64,000 nt of DNA from Hormiphora californensis (Eukaryota > Animalia > Ctenophora): positions 7,254,001 to 7,318,000 of the forward strand of contig CM035353.1 of assembly GCA_020137815.1 (NCBI GenBank), written 5' to 3'. Every line of letters starts with the position of its first letter. Position 1 is the first letter of the stretch. Below are positions 12,078 to 37,916 of the stretch, piece by piece. Under the pieces are notes generated by a model that did no database searches, was not told the DNA's origin, and was given only the letters and a program-made list of their open reading frames with translations. Both the position numbers and the translations under genes were made by a program.

Positions 12078-15000
12078 ATGCCCCTTTTTGGGATCTCCCA
12101 GTTTGATAAGCTCCTGTCCAAGGCGACTGATGAACAAGTGAAGGAGCCCGACTGGACGGGGATAATGGCAATGTGTGATCTAATCCGGCAACAGGAAGTC
12201 ACACCTAACATTGCCATTGGTTCAATCAGGAAAAACCTTTTCCATCGGAACTCACAGGGTAGGGAAATCGTGTTTCTTCATTTTCGTCTTTCTTTCTCTC
12301 TCTTTCTTTCTCTCTTTATTCTCTTTCTTTCTCTCTCCCTCTACCCTTCTCTACATTTCACAGTTGTGTTAAATAATTTGCTTGTGCTGGAGTGTATCGT
12401 TAAGAACTGTGGACAGCCCATGCACGAGGAGGTTACCCAGTATGAATTCCTCGAGGACCTGAAGGACTTAGTTCGGGTAGGATTAACAAACCTTCCTGGG
12501 TTAAATGTAATTTATTCCTGACGGTATTATGTTATCAAATTCCCAAGTTAGTTAAGCGAGAATCTAGAGCGAATGAAGGTTTATCATATATAATCCACTC
12601 CCTAGACGGGTTACGTGACTGTTCGAGTAAAGGTGCTGGCTCTCATTGCCAGTTGGTATGAAGTGTTCAAGAACGAGCCAAAGTATTCAGGGATTAAAGA
12701 AATCTATGACACGCTCAAAGGGGACGGGTTCCTGTTTCCTGAACTCAACAACTCTGAGGACCTGTTTGACGCGACCAGGGTAAGAGTAGAACACATGGCA
12801 CATTATAATATGTACGATCATTTAAATGTGTACGTGATATATAATGTGTAATATTGATACAAATTTCCTCAATTTAGCAAACACTTCCACAATATACAGT
12901 GTAGTGTCAGCCTCGTTTGTTCCAACTTGTTTTTTAGGTTTCCAGCTTCATTCGCCCTTTACAGTAATAGAGTTTACACAACTAATTACACTAATCACAC
13001 TAATTATTACACTAATTACACTAAATACACTAATTATTATTGACAGGCACCAGAGTGGGAAGACGGTCGGTTTTGTCATCTTTGCAGAATGGCCTTCACC
13101 ATGACCAAACGGAAACATCACTGCCGAAACTGCGGTCAGATATTCTGTGCGGAGTGCACAACTGACAGGGTACCACTGCCCCATTTTGGAATTGAGAAAG
13201 AGGTAAATTCAAGAGAGACACGATATATTATGTATCAAATATATTCACTATATTAATATGATATATCTGTTACTTATATCATGCAGGTTACTCATTTGAT
13301 ATTTATTGCATACTATTTTCACAGGTACGGGTTTGCAGTATCTGTGCCGGGAAATTATCTGCAAAACAGAAGGCTGGGGGCTCTGCTGCTGCTGCTGCAA
13401 CTGGAGGAGCGTCTACCAGCTCTGTAGATTCCTTGACTGCTCGACAACCGGCATCAAATCCGGAGGTAAGGAAAGGTCTCTTAGTTTCTCTAGAATATAC
13501 GTATATAATATTACACAACACCGGCAGTGTGCATCGTTTAAATAATACAACGAATTTGCAGCCAGTTCGCTAAAAGTACATTACTCTGGAATACTGTAGA
13601 TTGTCGGGTGTGTATCAATAGAGAAGATCTGATTTAATGTGGACTTTTTGTAACCTTAAATTCCCATTAGATTGAAGCAGAAGAAAAGAGAAAACAACTT
13701 GAGTTAAAGGAAAAAGAAGACATTGATCTAGCCATTGCTCTATCTCTTTCTGAAGCCTCTTCGGTAAATATATTCTCTGCTATAACATCCATTTATAAAT
13801 CAACTATCTAACTGTAAAACTATACATCTCCAACTATCTTATGCTCCTTTCTCGGAACGCGTTCGTCTAGTCATCGCGCGTCGCGGGCCGCCCCGCCAGC
13901 CCTCCAAACCCGGGTGAACAAGCGAACAATAGTGAAATTACATGCGATATACTACATGACTAGACGAACGCGTTCCGAAAATGCAGCATTAAACTCTTAA
14001 AAATTCTACATCGCATCTCCATTCTACAACTATTTAAATTCTAAATCTAAAATTCTACATTTTGTTGTCATCGTAACACACCATGACAACCAGCAACTAA
14101 CACAACAAATATCAGTCAGGTAAGGGCCGACCTGAGCCGACTGTGCAGGCAGTACCGGTACCACGTGAATCTGCCCCTACTGTTGAATATGCAGAGGTCG
14201 AGAGGACTCCTACTAGTACTTCCTACTACCCTGACCTCTCAGCTGCCGCACCGCAGGTATGATACCGAGTCCACGGCGTGCCTGGTGAAATTTTAACACG
14301 ACCTAGCATGCGACGGGAAACCACCACTTGTACGTGGTAGCTGAGGGTCTACAGAATGGCGCTACGGTGCGGGAAAAAACATTCCATTCCCTAAAATCGT
14401 TTTTTTTACTTTTATTTGATTTGGGTCAAAATTGGCTATATTAAACGTGGTCCCGAAAAATCCATAATGACTTAGCACACGAAATATGTCACCCCCACCT
14501 ATTTTTGCACGTAGAATCGATTGCCGTTGAAGTCGAATCTCTAAAATGACTGTGAAATGGTCAAAAGTTGATTTTTTACCATTTTTTGGAGGTTTTTGGC
14601 CCCTAAACCATTGAAAACGTTGAGATAGGAATTTGAAACTAGTGCCAATCGTTAAAATGGTCATTTTTCTACCAAGAACCAAGTTTTCGTGTATATCCGA
14701 TTTATGGTTAGATTTGGGTAAATTGTTGAAATCTGCCAACTAGGAGAACCGTAACTTGATTTTCTTGTTTTTTGGATTTTGGCATTTTTGACAAACTTCT
14801 GATTGAAATGGTCAATCGGGACCATGCTTAAGTTGTTTATGGGACAATTTTCGACTAAAATCCAAGATTTCATACCAATCCAATAACAGATCGTTGATTT
14901 ATAGAAAATTTAAGTAGGCAAAACGGTCAAAATAAGCAAGAAAAGTTGTCATTTTGACCGTTTTGCCTACTTAAATTTTCTATAAATCAACGATCTGGAT

Positions 15001-15894
15001 TGGTATGAAATCTTGGATTTTAGTCGAAAATTGTCCCATAAACAACTTAAGCATGGTCCCGATTGACCATTACAATCAGAAGTTTGTCAAAAATGCCAAA
15101 ATCCAAAAAACAAGAAAATCAAGTTACGGTTCTCCTAGTTGGCAGATTTCAACAATTTACCCAAATCTAACCATAAATCGGATATACACGAAAACTTGGT
15201 TCTTGGTAGAAAAATGACCATTTTAACGATTGGCACTAGTTTCAAATTCCTATCTCAACGTTTTCAATGGTTTAGGGGCCAAAAACCTCCAAAAAATGGT
15301 AAAAAATCAACTTTTGACCATTTTACAGTCATTTTAGAGATTCGACTTCAACGGCAATCGATTCTACGTGCAAAAATAGGTGGGGGTGACATATTTCGTG
15401 TGCTAAGTCATTATGGATTTTTCGGGACCACGTTTAATATAGCCAATTTTGACCCAAATCAAATAAAAGTAAAAAAAACGATTTTAGGGAATGGAATGTT
15501 TTTTCCCGCACCGTAGCGCCATTCTGTAGACCCTCAGCTACCACGTACAAGTGGTGGTTTCCCGTCGCATGCTAGGTCGTGTTAAAATTTCACCAGGCAC
15601 GCCGTGAGTCGTACACCGGTTTGCCGGGCAGTATATGGCTTCCGAGTATCCTAATGTAGATGAAAACAGACAAGACAGAGACCAGATATATATTGATGTA
15701 GACCCCCTCCCCTCTCAGCCCGTTACCAATGGCCTCTACCCGAGTTTCCAGCAACCCACAACTACCACTGCAGCAGCAGTACCTGATAACAACAACTCTT
15801 TTGCACGGGCCTATAATGGTCCTCAAGCTAGTACAGCTGTTAACAATGGATTACCACAACAGCAGGTAAGAGAGAGATAGAGAGATGGAGAGGA

Positions 15895-15989
<95 letters not shown>

Positions 15990-18900
15990 TAGGAATAGAG
16001 ATAGGCCAAGTCTGTGTATATTGTTGCAGATGTGTTTGTTTTCTTCAGTACACACTACACACGCCTGTAAGCAGGTCATGTACTCAATGCTCACACTGTA
16101 CAAAGTAAAGTGATAATACACGTGATCCTTACATTGACTCATTATAAAATTTGGTTTGTACCACATGTTCATTGCTACGTATCCCAGGTACAGGCAGCAA
16201 CAGAAGAGCCAGCACACCACGCACAACAGATTAAGGATCTAACTGAGATGCTAATGAGGAAACTTAACCAGGCCGCGATGAAGGGTAATTAAGGGGTGAT
16301 TAATTAACTAATTAAAGGGTGATTAATTAACTGATTAAGGGGAATTAATTAACTAATTAAAAGGGGTCATTATAAGTGAATAACAATGTTCAACTCCGTT
16401 TTCAGGTCAACACGTTGGTACGGATCCACACATCCAGACACTACTGGCATCACTAACTACCCTTCACCCAAAGCTAGTTTCGGATATTGAGGAAACTGAA
16501 CGTGAGTCTTGTCCCATGGGAGGTTGACCCACAATATAGTTCTTCCCTTTACATTGGACGTACAACTGATCCCTGGGAGGGGGTTTGGGTGGTTTATCAC
16601 TTTGACACCACCCCCCCCCCCCCCCATGTCACCCCATTCCCTGAATGTATAGGTTTAACAACTATTCACCCCTCTATATACAGAGATCTAAGAGTGATAT
16701 ATTATAACCCGTGGTGTGATTTCAGGTAAGATGAAAACTCAGAAAGCCATCCTTGATAAGATAGCGACGTGTCGTCAGGCCAGGGAGAGTCTCAATAAGA
16801 TGAGGGAGGAGCACCTTCAGAAGGTAGAGAGAGAGAGTTAACATAATGAGTGTCTGATAACATGTTAATATACCATGTTAACATGTACGTTAGGGTTATC
16901 TATTTGCGCAACGAAAGTCATACTGGAATGTTCGGGCGTCCAGCATGATGACCAGGGGACTTAAGGGGTTCAGAGAATCACTTGCGCGTAGGCAGCAACC
17001 CTGTGGGCGAGCCGTACGGGCCGATAGTTAATAATAGTTTTTTAAAGTTAATAAAAGTTATAAAAAGTTAAAAATGCGTGGCACCCTGAAAAGCCGAAAA
17101 AAATCAACTTTTTCAGGGTTCCGCGCATTTTTAACTATTTATAACTTTTATTAACTTTTAAAAACTTTAAAAAACTATTATTAACTATCGGCCCGTACGG
17201 CTCGCCCACAGGGTTGCTGCCTGCGCGCATATGATTCTCTGAATCCATTTAGACCCCCGGTCCTCATGCTGGACGCCCGAAGTCTCGAAAAGCCAATTCC
17301 AAAGATCGATAACCCTAATGTACGTTATCATCATGTTAACACATACATTGGATGAATCATGTCAGATTTTGTTAGCTCTGAATGCTGTAGAGTTTATCGA
17401 TAAATTTGACTGCCATTTCTGGAATTTCACAGGTCTCCTTTTATAGGTCCGGCTCACATCTCTCCTTTTATAGGTCCGGCAGCAAGAAGAAGAACAAAGT
17501 ATTTTGATGAAACTGCAGATGGAACAAAAGTTGGAGCTCCTAAGACAACAAAAGTTGGAGCAACTGAAGTACCAGGTACAATTTACATCAAACCTCGATT
17601 TACCGGACTTGATTTACCCGGACGGAAAATTTTCCCCCCATTATTGGTATTTTTGATACGTTTTTCACCTTTGAATAATTTCGAATCTCCTTATTTTCCT
17701 CTTTATACACCCCTTCATTGTCCTAACAATACCTATCACAGGAGGAATTAAAAAGGCGCCATGAGCAGGCTCTACACCACAAGGAGTTGGCCTACCCAGC
17801 ACAACCTGTATACCAGCCACCTGCAGGGGTTCCTGTGAGTAACCAACCCGCTCCTCAACCAAGAATGACAGTACCCCAGTACCAAATGCAACAGGTGGTG
17901 GTCCAATGCAGGCAGGAGGTGGTCCAATGCAGCAAGGTCCGGTAGGGGGCAGTGCTGAGCAAGGCCCGGGTGTGGTTATGTCTACTCACGTTACGCCAAC
18001 ACCCGCCCCAGTTTCGCAGGTGAGGCTCTGACTCTAATATCACACACAATGCCGCTATGTATGAAACAGGAAACTGAATTTATCGGCCGGGAATGCTCTT
18101 GTTATTAGCTTTAAGTATTAGAAAGCTCATCAAAATAAAATGTATTATACCGCGTGGGCCAATAAAAAGGGAGGGTCTTAAATCTTAGATTTCTCCAGCA
18201 CCTTAATTCCAATGGTTCTGAAATTTTTACACAATGTTGTTGAGCTTATGCCAGATATGTGTACAGAGTTTCAAGTCCAAAAATGCAGAAATTCATTAAT
18301 GAACCTAAATTCCTTTTTTTATAGTTAATCGAAGATTTTCCCTTGTTCCAAGTCGATTTGGATCGCAAAATTGCAGCCACTCAATAGTATTAACATTTAT
18401 CAATGGCAATCTGAAATTTCATTGAAAATGAATAAAGTTTAGTGGGTGAAATTAATGAATTAAAAATGGTAATTTTTTCAAAAAACATATTTTCGCTGAA
18501 AATGAGAGATTTGCACTGTAGAGATGAAATTAAAACCTAGCTGGGTTATGCTTTAATCATTTAAGTTCATTCTGGTATGAAAAACTGTTTAATTTAAAAA
18601 AAAATTATTTTTCTTAAATTTCCGATTTTTTTAAAATTTTTTTAATTTTTTCGTTAATAACTGCATTAATTAACATTAAACCGATAGTTCATTAACAAAC
18701 CGTTAGTTGAGACATTAGTAAATCGAAACCTTGCTAATGGAAGCTTACCATTGCCTATACTGATTGGTAACAACAAGCGTCATGTGACCTCCATGTAAGC
18801 AAGAAAAAACGTAATCAGGATGTGACAAAATCATGTTAGCAAGATTGCAATAGGTTTCGAATTTCCTTTGTTGTACCCAGTATCACATATCCGGTGTGGA

Positions 18901-19972
18901 GTGCAAAAGAAGTCCCTAAAAACGAAAAATACCGAATAGAGAAAACCTACATTGGCCTAAAAACATGAATTTAGGTTCATTAATGAATTTTTTCATTTTT
19001 GGACTTGAAACTCTGTACACATATCTGGCATAAGCTCAACAACATTGTGTCAAAATTTCAGAACCATTGGAATTAAGGTGCTGGAGAAATCTAAGATTTA
19101 AGACCCTCCCTTTTTATTGGCCCACGCGGTATATATCCTTCTCTTCCTCCAGCAGGGTCCACAACCAGCGTACTACCAGCCGGTACCTCCTGGCTACAAC
19201 ATGCCGCCCCCTAACATGCAGCAGCCCCCTAACATGCAGCAGCCCCCTAACATGCCCCCACAATACTACGGAGCGCCACAACACTATCATGGGGGACCCT
19301 ACAGGGGATACTATCCTCCCCACCCTGGCCAGCAACAACCCCCTCCTCAACATCCTAATATGGGTGGTCAGCAACAACCCCCTCCTCAACATCCTAATAT
19401 GGGTGGTCAGCAACAACCCCCTCCTCAACATCCTAATATGGGTGGTCAGCAACCACCCCCTCCTCAACATCCTAATATGGGTGGTCAGCAACCACCCCCT
19501 CAACAACAACATCCTAATATGGGTGGTCAACAGCAACCCCCTCCTCAACAACATCCTAATATGGGTGGTCAACAGCAACCCCCTCAACAGATGGGTGCTG
19601 GCCCACAACAACCACCGCCACATACTATGCAGGTCAGTGCGTATTAATAGTTAATACCATATATATTGGTGTTGGTTTCTATTATATTTGATGACTCTCA
19701 ATATCTAACAATATCTAGTAGTTTCTGGTGCCCCTCCAGCCCCCCCCCCCCCCCCCCGTAGTTTATGTTGGTTACAATTACCCCCCCCCCCCCCTCAGGA
19801 GCCAGTCCAGCCTCCTGTCCAACCCCCTCCTGCTAGTAGTGGTGCCCCGCTCACTCAAGATGCTATGTTGGCGGCAATCAATACAGCTCCAGCACCCCCT
19901 ACTGAGCGCCTCCCTACCCCTGAGCAACGTACCCGCGGTGAACCCGCTGTGGCTGACCTTATCTCTTTCTAG
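12078..19972 (+). CDS. HGS: hepatocyte growth factor-regulated tyrosine kinase substrate (Hrs/Vps27, ESCRT-0), multi-exon
   Basis: VHS domain (FDKLLSKATDE...PDWTGIMAMCDLIRQ; LECIVKNCG); FYVE exon 13047-13202 (WED..CHLC...RKHHCRNCGQIFC..C); UIM (EKEDIDLAIALSLSEA, ~13671-13763); coiled coil (MEQKLELLRQQKLEQLKYQ); Q/P-rich tail; terminal clathrin-box-like ADLISF-stop. Confidence 0.93.
13842..13988. mobile_element. small intronic MITE
   Basis: TCGGAACGCGTTCGTCTAGTCAT inverted at ~13956-13978; flanked by TTA on both sides. Confidence 0.7.
14272..15606. mobile_element. 1.3-kb near-perfect foldback, Chapaev(CMC)-like non-autonomous element, in an HGS intron
   Basis: Termini CACGG...CCGTG, 4-bp TSD AGTC (14268-14271, 15607-15610), ~660-bp arms, ~19-nt loop near 14933-14951. 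Confidence 0.9.
15870..15985. repeat. (GA)n microsatellite just after an HGS donor site
   Basis: Directly visible. Confidence 0.95.
16891..17317. mobile_element. hAT-type palindromic MITE in an HGS intron
   Basis: TIR TAGGGTTATC/GATAACCCTA, 8-bp TSD ATGTACGT, long internal inverted arms. Confidence 0.88.
18148..19131. mobile_element. Tc1/mariner-type non-autonomous element with ~165-bp TIRs in an HGS intron
   Basis: TACCGCGTGGGCCAATAAAAAGGGAGGG... inverted at the right end; TA TSD. Confidence 0.88.
19330..19600 (+). repeat. coding 39-bp tandem repeat (QQQPPPQHPNMGG, about 6 copies) in HGS
   Basis: Seen directly in the sequence and in ORF 19117-19647. Confidence 0.9.
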
Positions 19973-20450
19973 AGCAATATTGTCTCCTTCTAGAGATATG
20001 ACTCCTTCTAGATGTATACTGGGACATTGGGATATTGATGTAGATATATATGTGTAGTGTATGTGATTAGAAGTCTGTTTAAATCTTTGAAAGGTGATTG
20101 ATATTTCCTGATATATTGCTAGAGCCTGGGATTTTTTTTCGTAATTTCTTTTTAAAATGACAAGGTAAAGTTGGTGTGAATTTCCAATTTTGAGTGTACC
20201 AAACTTAAATATTTCAGTGTTTCATTGTCTTACCATGTTTTGCATCTTCCCTTCTTTCGTCACGTATACACAAGTGAGATCCTGTCTCAAATCTTTCTAG
20301 ATTATCAAACATGATAATCTAAACACAAATCACAATCTCCTAACATTATCTCTCCTAACATAGAATTCTCTCCACCCTATTATAATCTCTCATGTTCTTC
20401 TAACCGGTTCTAACACAATCTAACATTTTCTCTCTGACAGAGTCCTCAAG

Positions 20451-23400: not shown

Positions 23401-23610
23401 GCTCGAAAGTGCCGACTAGATCGCATCTTGATAGAAACAGACGCACCTTACATGAAGCCTACGAATGCAAGCCATATGAATGACTCTAAAAACAATTCGC
23501 CAGCCATGGCCGTTTGGATAGCTCAAAAAGTGGCAGAGATTAGACATATGGAGTTAGATGAGGTTCTGACTCAGGTCAGACAGAATGTGAAAGCGATGTA
23601 TGGAATTTAG
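20451..23610 (+). CDS. TATDN2: TatD-family nuclease, TATDN2-like, with N-terminal CCHC zinc knuckle
   Basis: CPNCGEAGHSTMDC; long RS/acidic region; FIDSHCHID, GCVANFCDP, VAWGEMGLDY, KPFVIHGR, IHFHCYTG (exon ~22770-22878), ILIETDAPY (exon ~23360-23610). Two 1-bp frameshifts near 22150 and 22320. Confidence 0.82.
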
Positions 23611-24119
23611 TCAACTTGATATGATTATGTCAATATGTGATAGAGACAGTATAGACTATCTGCAATCAGTGTTGAACGTAATCTGCAGTGTAATCTGCAG
23701 TGAGAGGGGGGGAGAGAGAGAGAGGGAGAGAGAGGGAAAAAAGAAGAGATATTCAGGTTTCTGCGGACGCTTACTTTTCTCCGCTACTGCTTTTTCAAGA
23801 GTTTTTTAACAAAGACCATTTTGTCAGTTGACCAAATTTATCCAAATCTGATATGATGCGTTTAGAACTTTGTCTAAAATGTGAAAGTGAAAGTATTTCT
23901 TGACCCAAGAACCATCTTAACTTTCACTTTCGTATTCGGAACCTTGTTATATTTTCCGGCTTGTGGGTCAGGATATTGTTCTAGCTTGCAGGGCTAGCGT
24001 GTTATACATATGATATCATCATATGTTAGACAATGCAAAAACAAGGAAATAGCTGTGCCAACTCTCACATGATGTGGTAACACAAACTATAAATATGTCT
24101 CAATCCTCTTTTATATCAT

Positions 24120-24201
24120 GCGGACGTGGCCGAGTGGTTAAGGCGATTGACTAGAAATCAATTGGGCTCTGCCCGCGTAGGTTCGAATCCTACCGTTCGC
24201 G
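24120..24201 (+). tRNA. tRNA-Ser (anticodon AGA)
   Basis: Acceptor stem GCGGACG/CGTTCGC, D-arm TGGCCGAGTGGTTAAGGC, anticodon arm ATTGA-CTAGAAA-TCAAT, long variable arm, T-loop GGTTCGAATCC, discriminator G. Confidence 0.95.
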
Positions 24202-24591
24202 ACGGAAATACTTTTTGTTTCCACCTTTACATTTTTTTCAAAGGTGTAAACTTGAGTTGCCCGACTAGACGTTGTGGGTAAACCTTGTCTCCGAATTTTG
24301 TGCTCCAAGCACGGGTGTGATAGGATTGGTGACATAGACACCTGGCGCGACCCCCTGATCAAGTTGCCATGCTACGCAGTCTGTCTGTTCGGCACTTTAA
24401 GCGCTTCGGGCTCGCGTAATTTAAGCTCACACCGGGCGGAAGGCCGGCCGGTGTGAGAGCTGACAGGCAAGGAACATGCCAATATCTCAGTATCAGAGAG
24501 AGTGAGTAATGAGTTTATTACCTCCAAAGAACACATTCACCAAGTACAAGACGTTGGCGACGTTCAGACGTGTTTTTAGACACACGATAAA

Positions 24592-24929
24592 AATTAAGAA
24601 TTAAAAATTGACGTTTTTGGCCATAACTTAGCCATTTCTTGGCCAAATTGCTTTTTCTTGGGCTCGTTGGAAAGAGGACATCGAGCTCGTCGCAAGCAGC
24701 TCAAGAAATTTGAAATCGGTCCGAAAATAGCGAAGTTTCAGCGCAAAATTAAAAGCACGTTTTTGAAACGCATATTTTCCGCTAAAATTACGCCATTTTT
24801 GGACCGATTTCAAATTGCTTGAGCTGATTGGAACGAACTCGATGCCCTCTTTCCAACGAGCCCAAGAAGAAGCAATTTGGCCAAAAAATGGGTGTTATGA
24901 CCAAAAACATCCATTTTTGATTTTTAATT
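24592..24929. mobile_element. palindromic MITE
   Basis: Imperfect arms, e.g. TTGGCCAAATTGCTT.TTCTTGGGCTCGTTGGAAAGAGG vs CCTCTTTCCAACGAGCCCAAGAAGAAGCAATTTGGCCAA. Confidence 0.8.
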
Positions 24930-25044
24930 TCTAGAGAGTTTTAAACTTTATAGTTACTAACTAAGTTAGGGTTAGACCAATACTTTGACAGTTATTTCTC
25001 TCTTTTATCTAAAATATATTTTGTCTGTCAGTTGCGCCTTTTTT

Positions 25045-25075
25045 GTCGTTAACTTCGGTAGTGCACATGTACTGT

Positions 25076-25107
<32 letters not shown>

Positions 25108-25110
25108 CAG
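25045..25110 (+). pseudogene. 3'-truncated U6 snRNA fragment
   Basis: ATATACTAAAATTGGAACGATACAGAGAAGAT (25076-25107) matches U6 including the ACAGAGA box; CTTCGG 5'-stem remnant at 25053. No ISL or 3' half follows. Confidence 0.8.
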
Positions 25111-25558
25111 AGAACGCCTTTACTGGATAATGGGCATTTACCATCGACACTATTACAGGCCGGTAATTGTAACTGCTCAGTTCCGGGTGATCATAGTTTT
25201 GTTTGGCGGTTACCATGGGATTGGGAACGTTTACCTATCACGTGATATGCCAGCCACGTGATATGTCAGCCACGTGATGCCCGACTAGCATTGCCAGTGC
25301 TTGTTGCCACAGGAACACCAAATTGTGGAGACATTGTCTAATAATACATCTCTTTCCCCACACACACGCTTAACCTCTAATCTCCTTCCCCACAAGACCT
25401 CCTATGCAAATGCGCTGCTGCTCTTTCTCTCAACTGTCACATGATGCAATTCTCTGTTGTCATCAACCAATAGAATGGCTGGAATCAAGTCACGTGGTAC
25501 TAACTGAGCCAACCAGCTGTCAGCACTAGAATAATGGCATCATTAGTGCAGATGGGAG

Positions 25559-25644: not shown

Positions 25645-25753
25645 AATAAGGTAAAGAGACATCACAAGTGGAGGAAGCTTCATTCGTAGTGAATCTTTGT
25701 TTGAGCCGTTACTCGAGAGTCCTTCTCTTCAAACCTATACCTTCTACTAAACC

Positions 25754-27450
<1,697 letters not shown>

Positions 27451-27895
27451 TCAATACTAGCTATCTGATCGAGTTACCATGTATTGCTAAAGCGACTGTT
27501 TCTCAATATCTGATCGGATGGAAGTTCCCGAATTCAATGCTGTCACTAATTTAAACTGTTATTTCACTATGACTATATTCGATAGTTTTCCCAATGCTTA
27601 TGTGTGCTTGCCATGCTGTGAAAATTTTCGTTTAAATTTCTTGATTCCCCAGCCTGAAAAAAGTTTTTTGAGATTTTGAGAATAAAATTAGGTCAACTTC
27701 AATCCAACTCAGCATGAAAAATAACTTTGGCATAATACATTTCCGCCTTCGATGCAAACTAACTTCAAGTGCCAGATTAGTACAATATGAAGCTGTCACT
27801 TCATCGTTGGTGATGCCATCCCCTATTATGTTTAGTGGCTATTATGTTTAGTGGCTAGTGTAGGGGTGGCCGCGTCACAAAACTTCATCGTGTAA

Positions 27896-30800
27896 TCATT
27901 CATCCTCCAAAGTTCCATAAACCCGCTCCTCGCCTGGGCACGGATTGTCATCTGTTGTTGTTACGTTATCATTAGTACATGTAATTGTAAGAGCAACTGA
28001 TCTCGTTGCTGCAGTGCTAGTGCTGGCGCCACTCGAATTCATAGCAGAGGTATGATCATTATAAATATGGTCCGTCTCTGCTAGATGGTGGGAAACAGGC
28101 CGGAATGTCTCCACTGAATCATTAGCAGGGGTGATGTTGTCATATTGAATTTTGTTCGCTGTTATTTCCTCCATTTCCATCTCTTCATCAAGTTCCCTGA
28201 CTTCAGAAGTCACCAGCTTCTCCCTAATCAAACTGACGTAGTAGGAAAGTTTACATTTCAGAGTCTTAGCTGCCGTCTCGGCTGATTTGTTGTAGATAAG
28301 GGGGTTCACTAGGGAGTTCAGGGGTAGGAAGATGATGGAGAACAAGGCGTAGGTTGGTGTGGCATCAATTACCAGTCCTGAGTGCAGGCAGCTCACCACG
28401 ATGAAGGGTATCCAACATAAAAAGTCCGTTAAAACTATCACTGTAACCTTTCGTTGGAGTTGTTGGTTCCGTTGGATTACCTGGTGATTTACACACGGTC
28501 CCGTAACTAGACCTTTGCTTCCCGATAGGGTGAAGATGGTGATGAGTATGTAGGAGATTGCAATGATCCCAAAGCAAAGGACATCTGAGAAAAGGACCAA
28601 CCAGACGTAAAGGAGTTGGGGATCTTCTCGGGTAACGAAGAATTTGAAGGAGCATACACCGTGGTTACCATAGAAACTATTACGGTGAGATCTGATTAGG
28701 GAGTAATCCTGGGAAAACATCTCCTGGATCAGGGACCGGATTTGTGACCACCGTAGGAACTTTCCCGAGTGACGCCGAATGCCTCCATAGTATCCCTCAA
28801 TGACAGATGTATGCATGGCTTTGTTGGGCATTCCTATAAACAGTGTGTTGTTCCGATCGTAACTAAGGCCATTTACAAAGAAATCCTCAAACTGAGGAAT
28901 CAGAGGGATGGTATAGAGAAACACCGGGAAAATGAGAACAAAAGCAAAGCAGATTACTACTTTCGCCTTGCACTTTGGGCTCAGCTCAGCTCTAGGACCA
29001 CGAACTAAATCATTAGAACGAATACTGCAGACCCTGATGAGACTTAGGATTGTCATGGAGACGACGGAGAGTTGTGAGCCGACTGAACTCAGCACTCCAA
29101 GTGTTGCACAGGGCCACTGTGACAACCATGTGACCTGGTGATCGCAATATGTGTGACCCAGAATAATGTCGTAGAAGGATAAAACCAATAGGTAGGCCCC
29201 TGTAAACATGTCTCCAATGGCAATTGACATTGTCAGGAATTTGTTCAGCATTATTTCCTTACTTTTGAAAGTCTGTTGTCGCATTTCCCAAACGGAAATC
29301 GAAAGATTCAGTGCATTCAGTGCAAAGGAAAGAATCCCAATCGCCCAAGCACACACCTTTAAGGAAACTCCATTCAATATCTCTTGTCCACAATGTTCGT
29401 TGCACTCATCAGAGAGGTCCACACAATCTAATGTTCCATCACATACCTGACTCAACCTTATTCCTTGCTCCATTCTTGCACTGGAAGCTGTTCCTACATC
29501 TTCGCTCGTCGCTAGAATCTCCACAATTATCAGCTAGGTCACAAACCGTGTCATAAGATATACAGTTACCATTATCGCAAACAAAATATCGGTTATGATA
29601 TCGACCTTGTTCCTGTACTAAAAATGTCAGATAGTCATTGTTAACAATGGTGTACACTTGATTCTTCGCTAGGTTCCGACAAGAGTCCTTCAAGACAACC
29701 CTTCCTTCTAGTGGACATTGTGTTGTATTGTCCAGGCATTGTCCTTCACATGCTATGTGTAGGTAAATCTCTCCATATAGTGACCTACAATCTAGTTTCT
29801 GGTTAGGTATGGTTATTTCTAGAGTGTCGTTTTTGCCAAACACATTCAGTCCAGGGGGATAATTCCACGCTTTGACTGAGTGACAAGGTGACAACTGCTG
29901 TCGGAGATTTTCTAAGCCTGGTAGACACCAAAACCCGATTTTGTTGATTTTCTTTCGACCGGGAATGTTGTTTGCAGTTGGAACTGTTTACGGGAAATAG
30001 TACAAACACGAGTCTCCGCTCCACAGGTGTAAACCAAATCACACAACTGGGGCAGCTCAATGTACCCTCCACGTGCACCCGGACACACAAAGACATCACT
30101 GCAGGTCTTGTTGGATTTTAGTCTGGTTGATGTCCCTGATCCGCATCTGGGCCACTGATCAACTTCATCCTCCCCTGACAGACAGTCAACCACACCATCG
30201 GAAATCCAATCTAGGGGGATTCGGTCCATCTTGTCCCGGACACCAAAGAACCTAGCACAAAACTTTCCAGATACTGTCAAACATATTGGATGGGTCTCAT
30301 CGGAAGAGTCAGGACAATCAGGGATTCCATTGCACATCCGGTGCTTATGGACAGTGCACTTGGGCGAGGCTTCAACACACTTCTCATTTAACCGGTCATC
30401 ACAGAGGGCCACGGCGCGAAGATCGGTACATATGACATGTCTACTGATAGTCGACAGAAAACCATCCACTAAACACACCCCTGCTACCTGAGAAACGTAT
30501 AATTACGTATACAGTCGGACCCCGATTTACCGGGATGCTCGGGGGAAAGGGTTTTGCCCGGTAAATCGGGGTGCCCGGTATTCCGGGGTAAAATATTGTT
30601 AATTGCCTATTTCGGGGGAAGATTATCCTCCCGGTAAATCGGGGTTCTGGTAAATCGGGGCCCGGTATATCGGGGTCCGACTGTAATTACAGTTGCCTGG
30701 TAACATAGACACCTAGCGCCGGTGTGCGGGGGTCGCGCCAGGTGTCTATGTCACCAATAATTACAGTAGGCGCTGCTTTGACGAGAATTTTGCGTCACGT

Positions 30801-33800
30801 GACGTTAATTGGCGAAAGAAGTCATTTGACAATCGCCAAGTTTTGGCAAGATTTGGCGGGAAATGGAAGCATAGAGGTTCAAATGTAAATTTTAGCAAGT
30901 GCTAAGAAGAAAAATCAGCATTCTGAAAGTTTCTACATACCCTGTCTGGGTCCGTACAGTTAGTTTGATCATGGAAGTTTGCACACACAGGATCGTACAC
31001 CTATAAATGCATAGTTGTTAAATAATTATTCAACAATCAACTACTTATAGATACTATCAACATATCGCGTCGAATGCAAATCAATTAATCTGTGTTTGGC
31101 GAAATATAAATTTGACTAAAGTCGGATTTTTTGAAGTTGTCACCCCCTTTTCACGCACGGCGTCGTATTTGGGCGTGACAGCCCCCACTTGCTCTCACTT
31201 TTCGGTAAAAAACCGCATATCATCAGAAAAGGCATCATTTTAGGAGTCCGTAAAGTTTTTGTTTGACGAAATTGGTCAAGAAATAAAGGCCAAGGCATGA
31301 GCGCCAAAAACAAGTTTCCAGCGCGCAAATAAAAATTAAAAACTCGCACGCCACCCAGTGGGGTGGCAATTTCAAAAAATCCGACTTTAACCTTTCCGGG
31401 TTGTTTAAAGCTGTAACAACGGGAAGAATTTATAAGGGCAACCTCCTCCCCGTAAAGGTTTATACAGATCTGTGTAGCTTGAAGACATTTTAAATTTCCA
31501 TTTCCAATGTACCAATAGCCCTCTCGACACATCATAAATGGTGTTGCGTACGTATCGATAATCCCATTCTGATGGTCGCTATAGTACTCACCATACCTGC
31601 AATGCAGCAGTTGGGAGAGTGATCGAGATACAAAGAGAAATATGGGAATTGGGGGCGATTTGGGAAAAAGGAGAGACAGATTGAAGATTCCTCAATTTGT
31701 GATCGGTACGATCGCTCCAGTTCTATACTAATACTATTTATAAACGCAGTGCAGGTACCTGTATCCATTGCACATCGCTTCATCCTCACAACCGTATAAA
31801 TTGCAAATGTCATCACACAGAATACTCCATGGCATTCGGGTACCAATAATGCTGGTAAAGGTGCTGTTCGCCTCACATTGTATTTCATCTACACCACCAT
31901 TCACACAATCAATCTCATCGTCACACCTGCAGCAGAGAATAAACGGTTTTCAAAAACGGTACGCATACGCATCATTTGTGTAACGGCTGTGATTGGCCAA
32001 CCTTGCGCGTCTTCTTGTAACGTTATTTCACCGAAACGTTTTTTTGCGACACCGTTTTTGACTGTATGGCGGCGCCATACCCCATTTGATTCTCAACAGT
32101 GCGCGACAGTGCGCTCAGATGGGTCGCGGCGCCAGACAGGTTTTTGACACTACAATTGCAGCTCCTTGCTTTAAGGGTACGCTAACCAAAAATTTTTTTC
32201 GAGTGCAGGGAAATCTCTCACCGTAGGGTTGTAGGCCATGCCAAGGAGACCTCAAATATGCAATTTGAGCTCTCAAGTCGAATTCATATTTTTGCTACAG
32301 CTGTTTAAAAAATGTCCTGTAAATACGTTTTTGGCATCTCAAAAAATTTTTATAAAGATAGGAGCATGAAAATTTGGGGATTTGAAGAGGACATGAAGGT
32401 GAATAACCACAAAAATTTTTTTTGCAATCCGAGCTGATTTCCGGTCCTGAGATGGATTTCTTTTTTTCCACTTTAACGCCCTATTTAGCAAAGTTCCGAA
32501 AACATGTGAAAGCTGTAAATTGGTGAAAAGTTGCGTCTAACGATTATCTAAGTGGCCATAAATTTTGGGCGTGTCCTTATTTGAGATAAGCTGTACAGAG
32601 TTTTTTTTGTGAAAGCCGTCATTTCAGAAATAAATAAATTCCCTGTATCTCAAAAACGGCTGATCGTAGAGACCTGAGACTATGCTTAAACGATTCAGAA
32701 GGTCCGATTTTGGGGGGGTCTTCTGAGAGACATTTTGCTCCTACTTCAACCGTTTTTGCTGTAATTGCGAAAAACAAAAACCCATCTTCGCCATCGTGGA
32801 TTTTTTGTGATTTGGTTTTTGGTGATTATAGGGACCCATATGGACCAAATAGTGAAGGAATTAGCTTGTTACACATTTTTCCATAGTTTCGGTCCTTTCT
32901 TAGCTAAAATTCCCTAATTACAGGATATTGGAGTTTAGCTTTTGCCCTTTTCATAGAATTTGTTTTTCGCAATTACAGCAAAAACGGTTGAAGTAGGAGC
33001 AAAATGTCTCTCAGAAGACCCCCCCAAAATCGGACCTTCTGAATCGTTTAAGCATAGTCTCAGGTCTCTACGATCAGCCGTTTTTGAGATACAGGGAATT
33101 TATTTATTTCTGAAATGACGGCTTTCACAAAAAAAACTCTGTACAGCTTATCTCAAATAAGGACACGCCCAAAATTTATGGCCACTTAGATAATCGTTAG
33201 ACGCAACTTTTCACCAATTTACAGCTTTCACATGTTTTCGGAACTTTGCTAAATAGGGCGTTAAAGTGGAAAAAAAGAAATCCATCTCAGGACCGGAAAT
33301 AAGCTCGGATTGCAAAAAAAATTTTTGTGGTTATTCACCTTCATGTCCTCTTCAAATCCCCAAATTTTCATGCTCCTATCTTTAAAAAAATTTTTTTGAG
33401 ATGCCAAAATCGTATTTATAGGACATTTTTTAAACAGCTGTAGCAAAAATATGAATTCGACTTGAGAGCTCAAATTGCATATTTGAGGTCTCCTTGGCAT
33501 GGCCTACAACCCTATGGTGAGAGATTTCCCTGCACTCGAGAAAAAATTTTGGTTAGCGTACCCTTAACTAACCGTACTGCTTGGACGTCTCCAGTTGTGA
33601 CGCCTTGATCACCTTTATAGACACACACGTATCTCTCACACAAAAACCGACTCGACTGAGACATGTGGGTAAGTGTTGACTCCAATGTCCCACAAACCTA
33701 CAAATGGAACAACATCTTTTAACATTATTAGCTCCAACGCTTAGTTTCCCTCCGTCACTGAAGCCTGAGATGTCAGGTCTCAGTGGAAAATAGCCGTGGC

Positions 33801-36800
33801 CTGAACCTGAGGTTTAGATACGACTAACGACTGTTTGCCACAGTGTTTTACCTGGTATGCTCGTGGATCATAAGGGCATGCTACATCAAAATCTGTAAAC
33901 CCAACAGCTTGGATTCGAATACTGTAGAAGTCATCCGATGCGGAACATTGAAAGTAGTCTCTATCGCTTCCGTGAAACTTGCATACCTTCTTCAGGTACC
34001 CATGAATTTCTTTTATCTCACAAACCTCTATAAAAATAATAACACGGGTTTAATTGAAATGTACCCAGCCAAAAATGGAGGATAAACTTCACCCGATATA
34101 GGAAATTTACGGTATTTGACCCCGATTTACCGGGCAAAACCCTTGCCCCCGAGCATCCCGTTAAATCGGGGTCCGACTTGCTTGACTAGTTATATATGAA
34201 CAATTTCTAATATAATATCTGCTTCCCTACAGTTTAGTAGCCTAGGATACAAACTGAAACTTACCCAATTCGCAGTACGGTAGATCGGGTATGTCGCATT
34301 CCTCCCACCGAGGATTGGTTGATGCCGCGTTGTAACACCACGGAGCATCTTCAACATCTGGGTTTCTGCAGTAATTATGATCTCCCATATTCTTCGTAAT
34401 TACATCCCTGCAAAAGTAATAGCCATTAAATACAAATTAAATACAAATTTTGTATCTTTAACTAGGTAAGTAAAAACTAAAAATAATTTAAACTACAGAT
34501 AATCCGATAAGTTGTGAATATTAGTCAGGTCTTTTGACATGATTAGGGGGTATGTATAATCCCGGATAGCTCGGATAGCCCGGATAATATATACTTTCGG
34601 GAAAGCCGGGATTATACCCCCTATACCCCCTATAGTATGTACATATCACTGCGCTGGCAAGCGCAAAGGTTGCCATTCCCCCCCCCCCCCCCAAAGCGCC
34701 GCCAGAAACGCAGTTATACGTTTTATGGGTGTTTTGGCTGAAAACCCAGACTTTAGAAGGCTATAGCGTGGCTCCCTTTCATCCATTTGACTTGAAATTT
34801 GGAATGTATAACCGGCTTGGGGTCTTTGACTCAAGTTTAAAATTTCAAGTCTTTATCTCATCTGGAACCGAAGTTACAGATAGGTCCCATTTGCCATAAA
34901 TTCAGTGTAACACGCATATACGCGCGCGCGCGCGCGCGTAGGAGAGACGCTTTTTGTAAACCATATTCACGCCAAACGAAAAGAGATAGAAACTTCTCGT
35001 TTTCACAGCTGGTAGATCTACTGGATGTGTGTGCATTAGTCGATATGGGGTCTCTTTTCATCGCCAGGAACGTCCTACAGAACGTCTTAAAGTCGTCATT
35101 TTTCAGACTCTGACCAAAATTCTTTGAGTTCAATTTAGACCCGGAAGACGGATTCTAATCGAAAAACGAAGACTATATCATGGAAAGAGAATTGTCTAAA
35201 CTTTCAGAAACTATATAGCGAATTTTCAAAACTACATGTATAAGGGTCTTAAAACGCGTCTGAAGTGTTATGACTGTTTAAAAATAGATATGACGATATG
35301 GGTTTTTTCGCCATAGCGGACTCAAATCTCATCCAATCGATCTCAATAGTCAGGGCATATGATGTTAGATTTTCGGCATAATTGTTATAAAGCTAATTCC
35401 ACTTCTAGGAGGTCCTATTGGGTCCCTAGAACCACCAAAAAAAATGTTCGCGATTTGGTGGATGAAGAAGTTGGGTTTCCGGGCCACGCCCTTCTACCTA
35501 TGTTTTGAGAACGAGGCAAAAAACGCCAAAACTGCGCTTAGGGGAGGAGTAGGGACAAAATCAAGGGCACTAGAGTGTTCAGCGTCCTCGCATTAGTGGG
35601 GGTAGATGCTGGAATTAAGTCTCTATCTTATCTGGTTAATTGGATAATTGGATAATTAGCTCTACGCATAGCCGTTTTTGGCCATATGGCTATAGCCATG
35701 TTAGGAAAGGAGTAGAGACAAAACCGAGGGCACTAAAGTGTTCAGCGTCCTCGAATTAGTGGGGGTAGGTGCTGGAATTAAGTCTCTATCTCATCTGGTT
35801 AATTAGATAATTGGATAATTAGGTCTGGGCATAGCCATTTTTGGCCATATGGCTATAGCCACTTGGGAATGATTTATCGACTTTTCCTTAGTGCCATTTT
35901 GTTCAGAAAAAAATTTTAATCTAAGAGTTGTGGAAAAATTTAGAGCCTATCTCTTACAGTTTTGGCGTTATTTGCGGTCAAAGTATGCCAAATCAGCCGA
36001 AAATGCCAAAAAATTAGTTAATTGGCCTACTTTGACCGCAAATAACGCCAAAACGGTAAGAGATAGGCTCTAAACTTTTCCACAACTCTTAGATTTTAAC
36101 AAAATGGCACCAATGAAAAGTCGATAAACCATTCCTAAGTGGCTATAGCCATATGGCCAAAAATGGCTATGCCCAGACCTAATTATCCAATTATCTAATT
36201 AACCAGATGAGATAGAGACTTAATTCCAGCACCTACCCCCACTAAAGGTCCTCCCAAACTATTATGTCCCTTGCTGCGCGCGACCGGATTTTAGACAGCC
36301 ATAGCTCCACCCCCTGATGGGATAGAGACTTGAAATTTGTTTTGTGAGGAGATCTTGTCGAGTTCTTCCTACAAAACAAATTTCAAGTCTTTATCTCATC
36401 AGGGAGTGGAATTATGACCGTGGGAAATTTCACAAAACCCGAGTGAGGGACATAGTAGTTTGGGGAATACTTTAATTCGAGGACGCTGAACACTTTAGTG
36501 CCCTCGGTTTTGTCTCTACTCCTTTCCTAACATGGCTATAGCCATATGGCCAAAAAACGGCTATGCGCAGAGCTAATTATCCAATTATCCAATTAACCCG
36601 ATAAGATAGAGACTTAATTCCAGCACCTACCCCCACTAATGCGAGGACGCTGAACACTCTAGTGCCCTTGATTTGTCCCTACTCCTCCCCTAAGCGCAGT
36701 TTTGGCGTTTTTTGCCTCGTGCTCAAAACATAGGTAGAAGGGCGTGGCCCGGAAACCCAACTTCTTCATCCACCAAATCGCGAACATTTTTTTTGGTGGT

Positions 36801-37916
36801 TCTAGGGATCCAATAGGACCTCCTAGAAGTGGAATTAGCTTTATAACAATTATGCCGAAAATCACCATGAAATTGACATCATATGCCCTGACTACAAACT
36901 TGGTCAGTATCTTTATCTAGGTAATCCCGATGATATGACGTTTTAATTGTGACGTCATGACGTCGTGAAGTCATTTTATGACGTCAAAATGACGTCAAAA
37001 ATGAAATTTTTTCAATTTAGCGATTCCATACTCTCCGTATCTGTTCTACTACATCTAAATGGATAAAAAATCCCAAAAATGATGCAAATTATACCAAAAC
37101 TAATTGAAATTAGTAGGCGGAAAGGTTGCCCTATGATTTGAGCTACCTTTGCCACTGTAACATTCACGGGCCGGGGTGCAGACAGGGTAAAACATATGCT
37201 TCGTCTATCTTCAATTTAAGGGAATGTATTGGTGCCAAAGGTAGCTCAAATCATAGGGCAACCTTTCCGGCCTACTAATTTCAATTAGTTTTGGTATAAT
37301 TTTAGATAAATACTATGTTACACGGCGAATTACGGAGTAATTCAGGAAACATGACCAGCAAATGAGGACAGCAAATGAGGACAGCAAATGAGGACAGCAA
37401 ATGACGTCATCAAAGCACAAACTAGGAACCGACCGAAACAAGTAAACAACCACTCAGAACTCGTTATTTAGGTCACGTGACTGGTTATCAGCCAATCAGG
37501 GACCAGTATTTCCTGGTTCGGTAGGTTCCTGGTACAAACTGTGTACAAACTGCGTACTTGAGATCAGAGAATAGGCGGCATGTGTGCTACTTATATAGCC
37601 ATCTGATGCGCAATTGAGGTTTGCTGTCCATATTTGCTGGCTCCCGGTCTCAACAAGGTACTAACCTGTCAGAGCATTGGCCTGACCCTATTCTCTGAAC
37701 TGTGGTCAGAGCATGACGGGTACTTACCAAGGCCCATGGCCCCCTCTTAACAAGGTACTACAGCTTACCAAGATGGGGGTAAATCTGATCCTTGGAATAG
37801 CCAGGTGTGTTCATTGGGTGTATGAGATAGCCAGTTCTGACAGGGAAGGCCTGACTTTGTCACATTCCTCGTTCCTCTATACCACAGCCCCTTGGGATCA
37901 TCGATTACCTTACAAA
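27896..37916 (-). CDS. kringle + Cys-rich/LDLa-repeat rhodopsin-class GPCR (GRL101/LGR-type 7TM, no LRRs)
   Basis: Phase-consistent exons 37916-37769, 34407-34265, 34027-33852, 33697-33573, 31926-31759, 31596-31392, 31000-30941, 30487-27896. Kringle (YRG...CQNW...HNYCRNPD...PWCY...WEECD), LDLa repeats ([25 protein letters not shown]), TM6 [11 protein letters not shown]7 [12 protein letters not shown] few frameshifts in the last exon. Confidence 0.85.
30512..30683. mobile_element. CAGTCGGACCCCG MITE (Tc1/mariner-pogo type), TA TSD
   Basis: TIR CAGTCGGACCCCGAT. Further copies at 44890-45046 and 61488-61659; fragments near 17590 and 34085-34178. Confidence 0.9.
30697..30760. repeat. short hairpin-like dispersed repeat
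   Basis: CATAGACACCT...AGGTGTCTATG; its right half is also present, inverted, at ~24325-24353. Confidence 0.55.
31119..31387. mobile_element. MITE, TA TSD, 4 nt inside a GPCR donor site
   Basis: AAGTCGGATTTTTTGAA.TTG.CACCCC / GGGGTGGCAATTTCAAAAAATCCGACTT. Confidence 0.8.
32175..33563. mobile_element. 1.4-kb foldback, TTAA-flanked with GG..CC ends (Kolobok-like), in a GPCR intron
   Basis: TTAA-GGGTACGCTAACC...GGTTAGCGTACCC-TTAA; ~600-bp near-identical arms. Confidence 0.88.
34647..35340 (+). mobile_element. dispersed repeat starting CACTGCGCTGGCAAGCGCAAAGG (possibly Chapaev3/CMC-like)
   Basis: 34647-35060 is closely similar to 63612-64000; the same start motif occurs at 63309. Confidence 0.7.
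35347..36894. mobile_element. 1.5-kb foldback with internally duplicated arms
   Basis: TAGTCAGGGCATATGATG...CATCATATGCCCTGACTA; centre near 36010; ~160-bp direct repeat within each arm. Confidence 0.88.
36246..36472. mobile_element. MITE nested in the right arm of the foldback, TAA TSD (PIF/Harbinger-like)
   Basis: The left arm preserves the empty site (GAATTAGTGGGGG, ~35753). Imperfect TIRs CCCAAACTA.TATGTCCC/GGGACATAGTAGTTTGGG. Confidence 0.8.
37088..37301. mobile_element. palindromic MITE
   Basis: AATTATACCAAAACTAATTGAAATTAGTAGGC...GCCTACTAATTTCAATTAGTTTTGGTATAATT. Confidence 0.8.
37423..37531. mobile_element. 109-bp hAT-type MITE
   Basis: TIR AGGAACCGACCGAA/TTCGGTAGGTTCCTG, 8-bp TSD G(C/T)ACAAAC. 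Preceded by a 13-bp tandem repeat (AGGACAGCAAATG, ~37355-37403). Confidence 0.8.

What the first reader, a model, noticed from the sequence alone, without database searches (positions are those of the whole stretch)
13842..37531. Introns filled by palindromic elements from many superfamilies, often against splice sites
Seen: in HGS and the GPCR nearly every long intron owes its length to self-complementary inserts with different TSD types (4-bp, 8-bp, TA, TTAA, TAA). Several sit 4-25 nt from a splice site (31387 vs donor 31391; 33563 vs 33572; 19131 vs ~19152; 30512 vs 30488). The LINE, LTR and piggyBac insertions in this window are all intergenic. Known: ctenophores are reported to lack the canonical miRNA Microprocessor and to have many RNA-editing enzymes. 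Inference: a filter in which foldback insertions are preferentially tolerated in introns, producing long intronic dsRNA for ADAR or Dicer.
Basis: partly seen in the sequence, partly recalled or inferred. Interest (0 to 1): 0.72.

Follow-up and report, generated by a model that had tools for sequence, protein, structure and literature searches.

The report
Foldback transposons inside comb-jelly introns
The long introns of two comb-jelly genes are ordinary short introns swollen by small mirror-image DNA transposons that also lie between genes, so this is likely tolerated transposon clutter of the kind known in the worm C. elegans, not a demonstrated intron-specific filter.

Summary
The elements are real. 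Ten intronic inserts in a ctenophore HGS gene and a kringle/LDLa GPCR gene have inverted ends and exact target duplications of 2-10 bp. Removing them leaves ordinary introns of 120-215 nt. Several belong to highly repeated families, and one has an empty-site allele in another sample.

The proposed filter is not shown. Long foldbacks also lie outside genes (5, against 7 in introns; P 0.06-0.25), the same families occur in both places, and the 'intergenic piggyBac' is itself a foldback. The two longest GPCR introns keep 1.4 and 4.5 kb without long inverted repeats.

No genome or RNA reads were available, so editing and small RNAs are untested. The closest known case is the palindromic DNA transposons in C. 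elegans introns; this scan has noted similar tolerated intronic hairpin elements in other genomes. Verdict: an ordinary transposon landscape with a weak, testable hint of intronic excess.

The parts
12078..19973 (+). HGS (VHS-FYVE) host gene, 15 coding exons, 14 GT-AG introns; one 1-nt frame slip in exon 17742-18019, likely an assembly error
13842..13988 (.). 147-bp MITE, 34-bp arms, TTA duplication; intron 13764-14115, empty 202 nt; 78 nt from the donor
14272..15606 (.). 1,335-bp near-perfect foldback, 611-bp arms with 2 mismatches, CAC...GTG ends, AGTC duplication (CMC/Chapaev-like, label recalled); intron 14257-15718, empty 123 nt; 15 nt from the donor
   Evidence: its 125-aa ORF has no Pfam match
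16891..17317 (.). 427-bp element, TAGGG...CCCTA ends, 8-bp duplication (hAT-like, recalled), inner palindrome about 85%; intron 16824-17473, empty 215 nt
18148..19131 (.). 984-bp element, 176-bp arms, 636-nt loop, TA (or TATA) duplication; intron 18020-19152, empty 147 nt; 21 nt from the acceptor, pyrimidine tract intact
27896..43113 (-). Kringle-kringle-LDLa-7TM GPCR host gene; 5' model of 615 aa open across 10 GT-AG introns; extension beyond 37916 inferred from phase and domain continuity
30512..30683 (.). 172-bp TA-duplication MITE (Tc1/mariner-like), 25-bp arms, highly repeated; 24 nt from acceptor 30488; full copies outside genes at 44890-45046 and 61488-61659
30693..30757 (.). 65-bp mini-element with a 9-10-bp duplication, 22-bp inner arms, poor terminal match; a fragment also lies between genes at 24326-24355
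31119..31387 (.). 269-bp TA-duplication MITE, 30-bp arms, inserted at the TA at +3/+4 of donor 31391; it changes +5/+6 and lowers the match to the donor consensus from 7 to 5 of 9; empty intron 120 nt
32062..32139 (.). 78-bp mini-MITE with an 8-bp duplication; empty-site allele in runs X5 and X6 (one sample)
32175..33563 (.). 1,389-bp foldback, about 609-bp arms at 98.7%, TTAA duplication, GG...CC ends (Kolobok-like, recalled); 9 nt from donor 33572, at the only TTAA of the 167-nt empty intron
34645..35346 (.). Non-palindromic repeat inside the 3,361-nt GPCR intron; its first 378 nt are 86% identical to intergenic 63610-63983
35347..36894 (.). 1,548-bp compound foldback, TAG...CTA ends, CAA duplication (Academ-like); holds a nested palindrome at 36253-36464
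37086..37302 (.). 217-bp decayed palindrome (79%) in the same intron
9707..11325 (.). Intergenic control: nest of inverted-repeat elements (9707-10170, 10659-11000, 11104-11325 with TAG...CTA ends and a TTC duplication)
24588..24933 (.). Intergenic control: 346-bp palindrome (83%) between tRNA-Ser and alpha-tubulin
45450..48956 (.). Intergenic control: long inverted arms with 16-bp tandem repeats round a 2.7-kb spacer
60937..63310 (.). Intergenic control: piggyBac-like remnant whose transposase segment is duplicated in inverted orientation, so it is itself a foldback

Best explanation
Short ctenophore introns (about 165 nt) have been lengthened by insertions with inverted ends and target duplications, likely non-autonomous cut-and-paste DNA transposons of several superfamilies that insert genome-wide and would persist in introns whenever they leave the donor and the acceptor signals usable. 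They are self-complementary because such elements carry terminal inverted repeats, and some have become almost wholly mirror-image. Copies in exons would be purged. Large retroelements are absent from these introns probably because of their length and their internal processing signals, or by chance at n=3. Closeness to splice sites follows mostly from the small target. The four long young foldbacks are predicted to form dsRNA in the pre-mRNA and would probably be A-to-I edited by ADAR2-like enzymes as a by-product, not as the reason they are there. SHOWN: element anatomy, empty-intron lengths, intergenic copies, high repetition, one empty-site allele. INFERRED: transposition mechanism, purifying selection, correct splicing, folding in vivo, editing.
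For: Exact duplications at 10 of 10 intronic and 3 of 3 intergenic elements tested. Seven empty introns of 120-215 nt, median 167, against a median of 166 for 17 other introns (Mann-Whitney P 0.50). The same families lie inside and outside genes: the 30512 family at 44890 and 61488; fragments of the 30693 and 31119 families at 24326 and 11933. Summed contig depth in run X4 is about 50-180 over exons and 1e5-7e5 over bins holding the elements; this is no copy number, but 113-141 contigs per run leave position 30510 with unlike flanks. An empty-site joint 32053>32140 appears in X5 and X6, with an overlap that fits the 8-bp duplication. Five long-arm elements are intergenic against 7 intronic, P 0.06-0.25. 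No exon base lies in an arm (0 of 17,712). Donors here are loose: 11 of 28 lack +5G, and four others match the consensus as weakly as the one changed by the 31119 insert. The same picture is published for C. elegans (PMC6239182), and editing of young repeats is reported across animals including Mnemiopsis (PMC9989829).
Against: Intron bases are 1.6-5 times more often in long arms than intergenic bases under every setting tried. Five of 9 elements lie within 25 nt of a splice site where a uniform model expects 2.2 (P 0.045; combined per-element P 0.037), and TA is not denser near the ends of other introns (8.8% against 8.8%), so my motif-aware correction (P 0.16) rests on the few rebuilt sites. 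The purely neutral view predicts depletion next to splice sites, and none is seen. In C. elegans inverted repeats are enriched in introns (56.3% against 34.7% of the genome, PMC6239182), so a real intronic bias is possible here too. One 64-kb window has little power.
Confidence: 0.75

Rival explanations
1. Folding filter. Splicing here would favour short introns; a foldback insert closes into a stem and restores the original donor-to-branch distance, so foldbacks survive in introns while unstructured inserts of equal length are removed.
For: All 7 simply expanded introns return to 120-215 nt once the elements are removed. Long arms cover 34% of intron bases against 13-21% outside genes. The inserts of about 1 kb or more that I catalogued in HGS and GPCR introns all carry long arms. 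Four of 7 expanded introns fold below -0.5 kcal/mol/nt at 15 C, against -0.11 to -0.45 for 17 other introns.
Against: Return to normal length is automatic for any insertion into a normal intron. The 3,361-nt intron keeps about 1.39 kb outside inverted repeats, and a probable 4,494-nt intron holds a nested gene and no foldback. Hormiphora has 1,654 genes hosting nested genes in introns (PMC8527503, passages), so long unstructured introns are spliced in this phylum. Counts of 7 against 5 are not significant.
Confidence: 0.13
2. Insertion bias rather than selection. The transposases favour transcribed, open or AT-rich DNA, so young elements with still-perfect arms are commoner in genes, while intergenic copies are older and broken by nested insertions.
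For: The intronic long arms are 97-99.7% alike, whereas most intergenic ones are 78-87% (one is 95%). Contigs leaving 30510 have AT-rich flanks. Preference for genes is a stated MITE trait (PMC5199201, passages) and is raised for C. elegans (PMC6239182).
Against: Decayed palindromes (73-85%) also lie in introns. Polishing of an assembly can make two arms look more alike than they are (general knowledge, not tested). There is no map of new insertions.
Confidence: 0.08
3. Co-opted dsRNA sources. The intronic hairpins are kept because they supply endo-siRNAs or editing substrates that matter to an animal without miRNAs.
For: [quoted passage not shown] Ctenophores have ADAR2- and ADAD-like genes (PMC4323055, passages).
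Against: The elements come from unrelated families, one is polymorphic, and unique Mnemiopsis endo-siRNAs show no bias to coding genes (PMC6211395). PMC4323055 says dramatic expansion does not characterise the ADAR family. No orthologous intron could be compared.
Confidence: 0.03
4. Assembly artefact: the long palindromes are chimeric or fold-back reads.
For: The assembly has many 1-nt indels in coding sequence; two in the GPCR are absent from independent contigs.
Against: Each tested element has discrete ends, a target duplication and collinear exons on both sides; the families laid are highly repeated in two samples.
Confidence: 0.01

Closest known systems
Palindromic non-autonomous DNA transposons in C. 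elegans introns (PAL5A_CE, PALTTAA3_CE, CELE1, IR3_CE) and editing-enriched regions (PMC6239182)
   Same: Unrelated palindromic DNA-transposon families sit in introns and make highly structured introns; 4 of 7 expanded introns here pass -0.5 kcal/mol/nt (different program and temperature). Function there is left open, as here.
   Different: In the worm, intronic enrichment (56.3% against 34.7%) and editing are measured genome-wide; here there is one window and no RNA. Native introns here are about 165 nt, the host is a ctenophore, and three elements exceed 1.3 kb.
MITEs and long-TIR (foldback) non-autonomous DNA transposons, classified by TIR and TSD (PMC5199201, PMC4455052)
   Same: Terminal inverted repeats, target duplications, no transposase, high repetition, occurrence in and near genes, presence/absence variation.
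   Different: Four of the ten exceed the 800-bp MITE limit and are better called long-TIR or foldback elements; autonomous partners were not identified, so superfamily labels rest on ends and duplications only.
ADAR hyper-editing of young repeat-derived dsRNA across Metazoa (PMC9989829)
   Same: Young, near-identical inverted arms inside transcripts are the typical substrate; the survey includes Mnemiopsis.
   Different: Editing is not shown for this species or these arms; in the ctenophore 45% of sites lay in regions with antisense transcription, a second source of dsRNA.
Introner elements (transposon-derived introns; PMC11282704, search listing and abstract start only)
   Same: DNA transposons associated with introns and splice sites.
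   Different: These elements do not create introns: each lies inside an intron whose own GT and AG are outside the element.

Membership tests
Non-autonomous TIR DNA transposon (MITE / foldback) | Terminal inverted repeats | tested here: met
   9 of 10 intronic elements match at 11-14 of 14 terminal bases; the 30693 element matches at only 4-5 of 14 but has 22-bp inner arms
Non-autonomous TIR DNA transposon (MITE / foldback) | Target-site duplication | tested here: met
   10 of 10 intronic and 3 of 3 intergenic elements tested; confirmed by an empty allele for one
Non-autonomous TIR DNA transposon (MITE / foldback) | Dispersed, many copies | tested here: met
   Shown for the five elements laid (30512, 30693, 31119, 32062, start of 32175) by depth and loose ends, and for the 30512 family; not tested for the four HGS elements or 35347
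Non-autonomous TIR DNA transposon (MITE / foldback) | No transposase coding capacity | tested here: met
   The only stop-to-stop frames of >=100 aa wholly inside the ten elements are two mirror copies of 125 aa in 14272-15606, with no Pfam match
MITE in the strict sense | Length under 800 bp (PMC5199201) | tested here: inconclusive
   Met by 6 of 10; not met by 14272 (1,335), 18148 (984), 32175 (1,389) and 35347 (1,548), which I file as long-TIR/foldback elements
Named superfamilies (Tc1/mariner, hAT, CMC, Kolobok, Academ, MULE, PIF/Harbinger) | Superfamily-typical TSD and termini | tested here: inconclusive
   TA (Tc1/mariner), TTAA (piggyBac) and 3 bp (Academ) are given in PMC5199201. The other labels, and Kolobok rather than piggyBac for 32175, are recalled; PMC3093488 was not held
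Named superfamilies (Tc1/mariner, hAT, CMC, Kolobok, Academ, MULE, PIF/Harbinger) | Shared ends with an autonomous element | not testable with these tools
   No genome held and no repeat library
C. elegans-type edited structured introns (EERs) | Intronic inverted repeats with strongly negative folding energy | tested here: met
   -1.10, -0.97, -0.74 and -0.56 kcal/mol/nt for 4 of 7 introns folded (ViennaRNA, 15 C); the 3,361-nt intron was not folded
C. elegans-type edited structured introns (EERs) | Clustered A-to-G changes in RNA | not testable with these tools
   No raw RNA reads offered
C. elegans-type edited structured introns (EERs) | Genome-wide enrichment of inverted repeats in introns | tested here: inconclusive
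   One window: excess by bases, not significant by count
Introner elements | The element itself supplies the new intron's splice sites | tested here: not met
   All donors and acceptors lie outside the elements, 4 nt or more away

The most novel reading that the evidence does not exclude
In ctenophores, with native introns near 165 nt, splicing sets a limit on unfolded intron length that only self-closing inserts escape. Foldback transposons of any superfamily are therefore selectively kept in introns, can sit within 4-25 nt of splice sites without blocking them, and make pre-mRNA the main source of long dsRNA for ADAR2-like enzymes and the endo-siRNA pathway in an animal without miRNAs.
Probability: 0.12. 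Interest if true: 0.6.

Novelty: new member of a known kind. Interest (0 to 1): 0.25.

Why it matters
As it stands, this extends a pattern known from C. elegans to a ctenophore and gives a clean catalogue of young foldback elements. They are good targets for asking where ctenophore editing and endo-siRNAs come from. The 31119 element, which rewrites +5/+6 of a donor, and the polymorphic 32062 element are ready-made tests of splicing tolerance. If the folding filter were real, it would show RNA structure deciding which transposons survive in genes, but the window cannot show this. My searches returned no paper devoted to intronic palindromic transposons in ctenophores; most subscription journals are not in that library.

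Tried and rejected
Whole-genome comparison: no genome is held. RNA: no RNA holder was listed for 12001-22000, which is no evidence either way. Run X18 (RNA is a guess) gave only 8 short records, all on the 30512 family at about 87-93% identity, so it says nothing on editing or splicing. No empty-site joint for the 30512 or 31119 elements appears among the 15 joints shown, but 165 were not shown. Contigs from both samples run from unique flank 22-28 letters into the 31119 element, under the tool's 31-letter bar, so its sharing between samples is only a hint. A metagenome scan for the 30512 terminus gave 4 contigs of 1.1-1.5 kb, too short for an intron-versus-intergenic test. The idea that the LINE lies in an intron of the gene at 1933-3460 was dropped: homologues show the PROSER3-like frame is a separate gene ending at 3888, which leaves the LINE between two tandem copies. 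Look-ups of earlier notes by place found nothing. Supplements of the papers were not opened; per-species figures in PMC9989829 may bear on ctenophore editing in introns.
Full report
SETTING. The window is from a ctenophore: the first HGS exon is 68-72% identical to Bolinopsis and Mnemiopsis HGS, the only 2 hits among 9 candidates. No whole genome is held, so all statistics come from this 64-kb window. The assembly has many 1-nt indels in coding sequence. Two in the GPCR (near 29462 and 29936) are absent from contigs of all three DNA runs laid and are likely assembly errors.

GENE MODELS. HGS (+, 12078-19973) has 14 GT-AG introns and aligns exon by exon to Mnemiopsis P0002; one frame slip lies in exon 17742-18019. 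The GPCR (-) reads without a stop for 615 aa across 10 GT-AG introns from a start at 43113. It has two kringle domains, each split by an intron (four half-domain hits, E 8e-10 to 4e-6), then LDLa repeats and a 7TM domain. The kringle split across 37769 and 34407 fixes the 3,361-nt intron. The 4,494-nt intron 37917-42410, holding an antisense LDLa-receptor gene, is inferred from phase and domain order, not from RNA.

THE ELEMENTS ARE REAL. An inverted-repeat scan found 51 pairs of score 18 or more within 2.3 kb, against 0 in each of 3 resampled windows. All 10 intronic elements tested have an exact target duplication: TTA, AGTC, an 8-mer, TA/TATA, TA, a 9-10-mer, TA, an 8-mer, TTAA and CAA. Three are long foldbacks with near-identical arms (14272-15606, 2 mismatches in 611; 32175-33563; 35347-36894), one is a decayed palindrome (16891-17317), one has 176-bp arms round a 636-nt loop, and five are small MITEs with stems of 34 bp or less. 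Laying contigs on 29400-32300 gave summed depths of about 50-180 over exons and 1e5-7e5 over bins holding the elements in run X4; the tool warns that this is no copy number. In each DNA run 113-141 contigs leave position 30510 with unlike flanks. A joint skipping 32054-32139, with an overlap that fits the 8-bp duplication, appears in X5 and X6 (one sample) and not in X4: an empty allele.

INTRON LENGTH. Removing the elements and one duplication from the 7 simply expanded introns leaves 120-215 nt, median 167, against a median of 166 for 17 other introns. The core observation therefore holds for these two genes. It does not extend to the other genes: none of 2,960 nt of other introns lies in an arm of 50 nt or more.

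INTRONS AGAINST INTERGENIC DNA. Arms of 50 nt or more at 70% or better cover 5,057 of 14,789 intron bases (34%), 3,832 of 18,569 non-retroelement intergenic bases (21%) and 13% of all intergenic bases; adding the nested-gene intron lowers the first figure to 26%. A stricter setting modelled on PMC9989829 gives 31%, 11% and 6.5%. By count there are 7 intronic and 5 intergenic long-arm elements, one-sided P 0.25, 0.06 or 0.14 by denominator. The 30512 family has two full copies outside genes, and a non-palindromic intronic repeat has an intergenic twin. 'Intergenic' for 43113-64000 means only that I found no host exons there.

SPLICE-SITE PROXIMITY. Five of 9 elements lie within 25 nt of a splice site; uniform insertion into the rebuilt introns expects 2.2 (P 0.045). 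Restricting TA, TTA and TTAA elements to their motifs raises the expectation to 3.3 (P 0.16); the 32175 element uses the only TTAA in its intron. Against my reading, TA is no denser near the ends of other introns, so a mild excess is not excluded. Both acceptor-side elements leave 21-24 nt, including the pyrimidine tract. The 31119 insert weakens its donor from 7 to 5 of 9 consensus matches, a score shared by four other donors of 28, and 11 of 28 donors lack +5G.

FOLDING AND EDITING. Four of 7 expanded introns fold at -0.56 to -1.10 kcal/mol/nt, against -0.11 to -0.45 for 17 others, so long duplexes are predicted. Editing and small RNAs could not be tested. A strict need for folding is contradicted by about 1.39 kb outside inverted repeats in the 3,361-nt intron, by the probable 4.5-kb nested-gene intron, and by 1,654 host genes with nested genes in Hormiphora (PMC8527503).

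MECHANISM. Most likely (0.75): highly repeated non-autonomous DNA transposons insert genome-wide, are removed from exons, and persist in short introns when the splice signals survive; hairpins come with the element type, and any editing is a by-product. Rivals are a folding filter (0.13), insertion bias towards genes (0.08), co-option as dsRNA sources (0.03) and artefact (0.01).

COMPARISON WITH WHAT IS KNOWN. The pattern works like the palindromic DNA transposons of C. elegans introns, where 56.3% of inverted-repeat sequence is intronic against 34.7% of the genome and structured introns overlap edited regions (PMC6239182; parts 1 and 4 of 7 and passages read). Editing of young repeats is reported across animals including Mnemiopsis (PMC9989829, passages). 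Mnemiopsis lacks miRNAs and has structured endo-siRNA clusters (PMC6211395, passages). Ctenophores have ADAR2- and ADAD-like genes but no ADAR1 (PMC4323055, passages). Classification by ends and duplications follows PMC5199201 and PMC4455052 (passages); the labels hAT, CMC, Kolobok, MULE and PIF are recalled. PMC8527503 was read as passages. Earlier notes of this scan describe tolerated intronic hairpin elements in other genomes; they are unchecked and not used as support.

VERDICT. Observation partly confirmed, interpretation not established; a new member of a known kind; interest 0.25.

Noticed in passing
27896-43113 (-): The GPCR model has two kringle domains ahead of LDLa repeats and a 7TM domain; none of the 120 homologues listed shows a precomputed kringle domain, so the architecture may be uncommon.
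   Followed up: partly
37917-42410, nested gene about 38430-41937 (+): A second LDLa-repeat receptor-like gene lies antisense inside the probable 4.5-kb intron of the first.
   Followed up: partly
3476-5696 and 7324-9533: 2.2-kb tandem duplication (96%) of a PROSER3-like gene (name recalled; homologues) with a LINE RT fragment between the copies; the upstream copy has many 1-nt deletions, so it is a pseudogene or an assembly artefact.
   Followed up: partly
61978-62446 and 62618-63056: A piggyBac-like transposase segment is duplicated in inverted orientation (87%), a possible snapshot of how a foldback arises from an autonomous element; a MITE of the 30512 family has since entered one arm.
   Followed up: partly
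42968-43024: A 57-nt hairpin inside a 105-nt intron; removing it would leave about 48 nt, far shorter than any other intron here.
   Followed up: no
15604-15609: The end of the 14272 foldback plus its target duplication spells a consensus-like donor (GTGAGT) inside the intron; use is unknown.
   Followed up: no
31391-31387 (-): The 269-bp MITE sits at +5 of a GPCR donor, replaces +5/+6, and its stem could extend to +3 through the TA duplication; the best single test of splicing tolerance.
   Followed up: partly
about 25065-25115: A short stretch resembling part of U6 snRNA (resemblance recalled); no Rfam match at the gathering score.
   Followed up: no
24119-24203: tRNA-Ser (AGA) gene between the TatD-like and alpha-tubulin genes.
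   Followed up: yes
31631-31727: A moderately repeated, non-palindromic stretch inside a 162-nt GPCR intron (summed depth about 6,400 in X4).
   Followed up: no
37426-37531 and L003:283-388: A 106-bp dispersed repeat in the long GPCR intron, 93% identical to a stretch of a metagenome contig.
   Followed up: partly
about 51543-60924: A degraded LTR retrotransposon with 97%-identical terminal repeats and an integrase-like frame; described only.
   Followed up: no
tubulin 27280-27340, TatD-like 22150-22330, HGS 17742-18019, GPCR 29462 and 29936: Frame-breaking 1-nt indels in conserved genes; the two in the GPCR are absent from independent contigs, so pseudogene calls in this assembly are unsafe.
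   Followed up: partly
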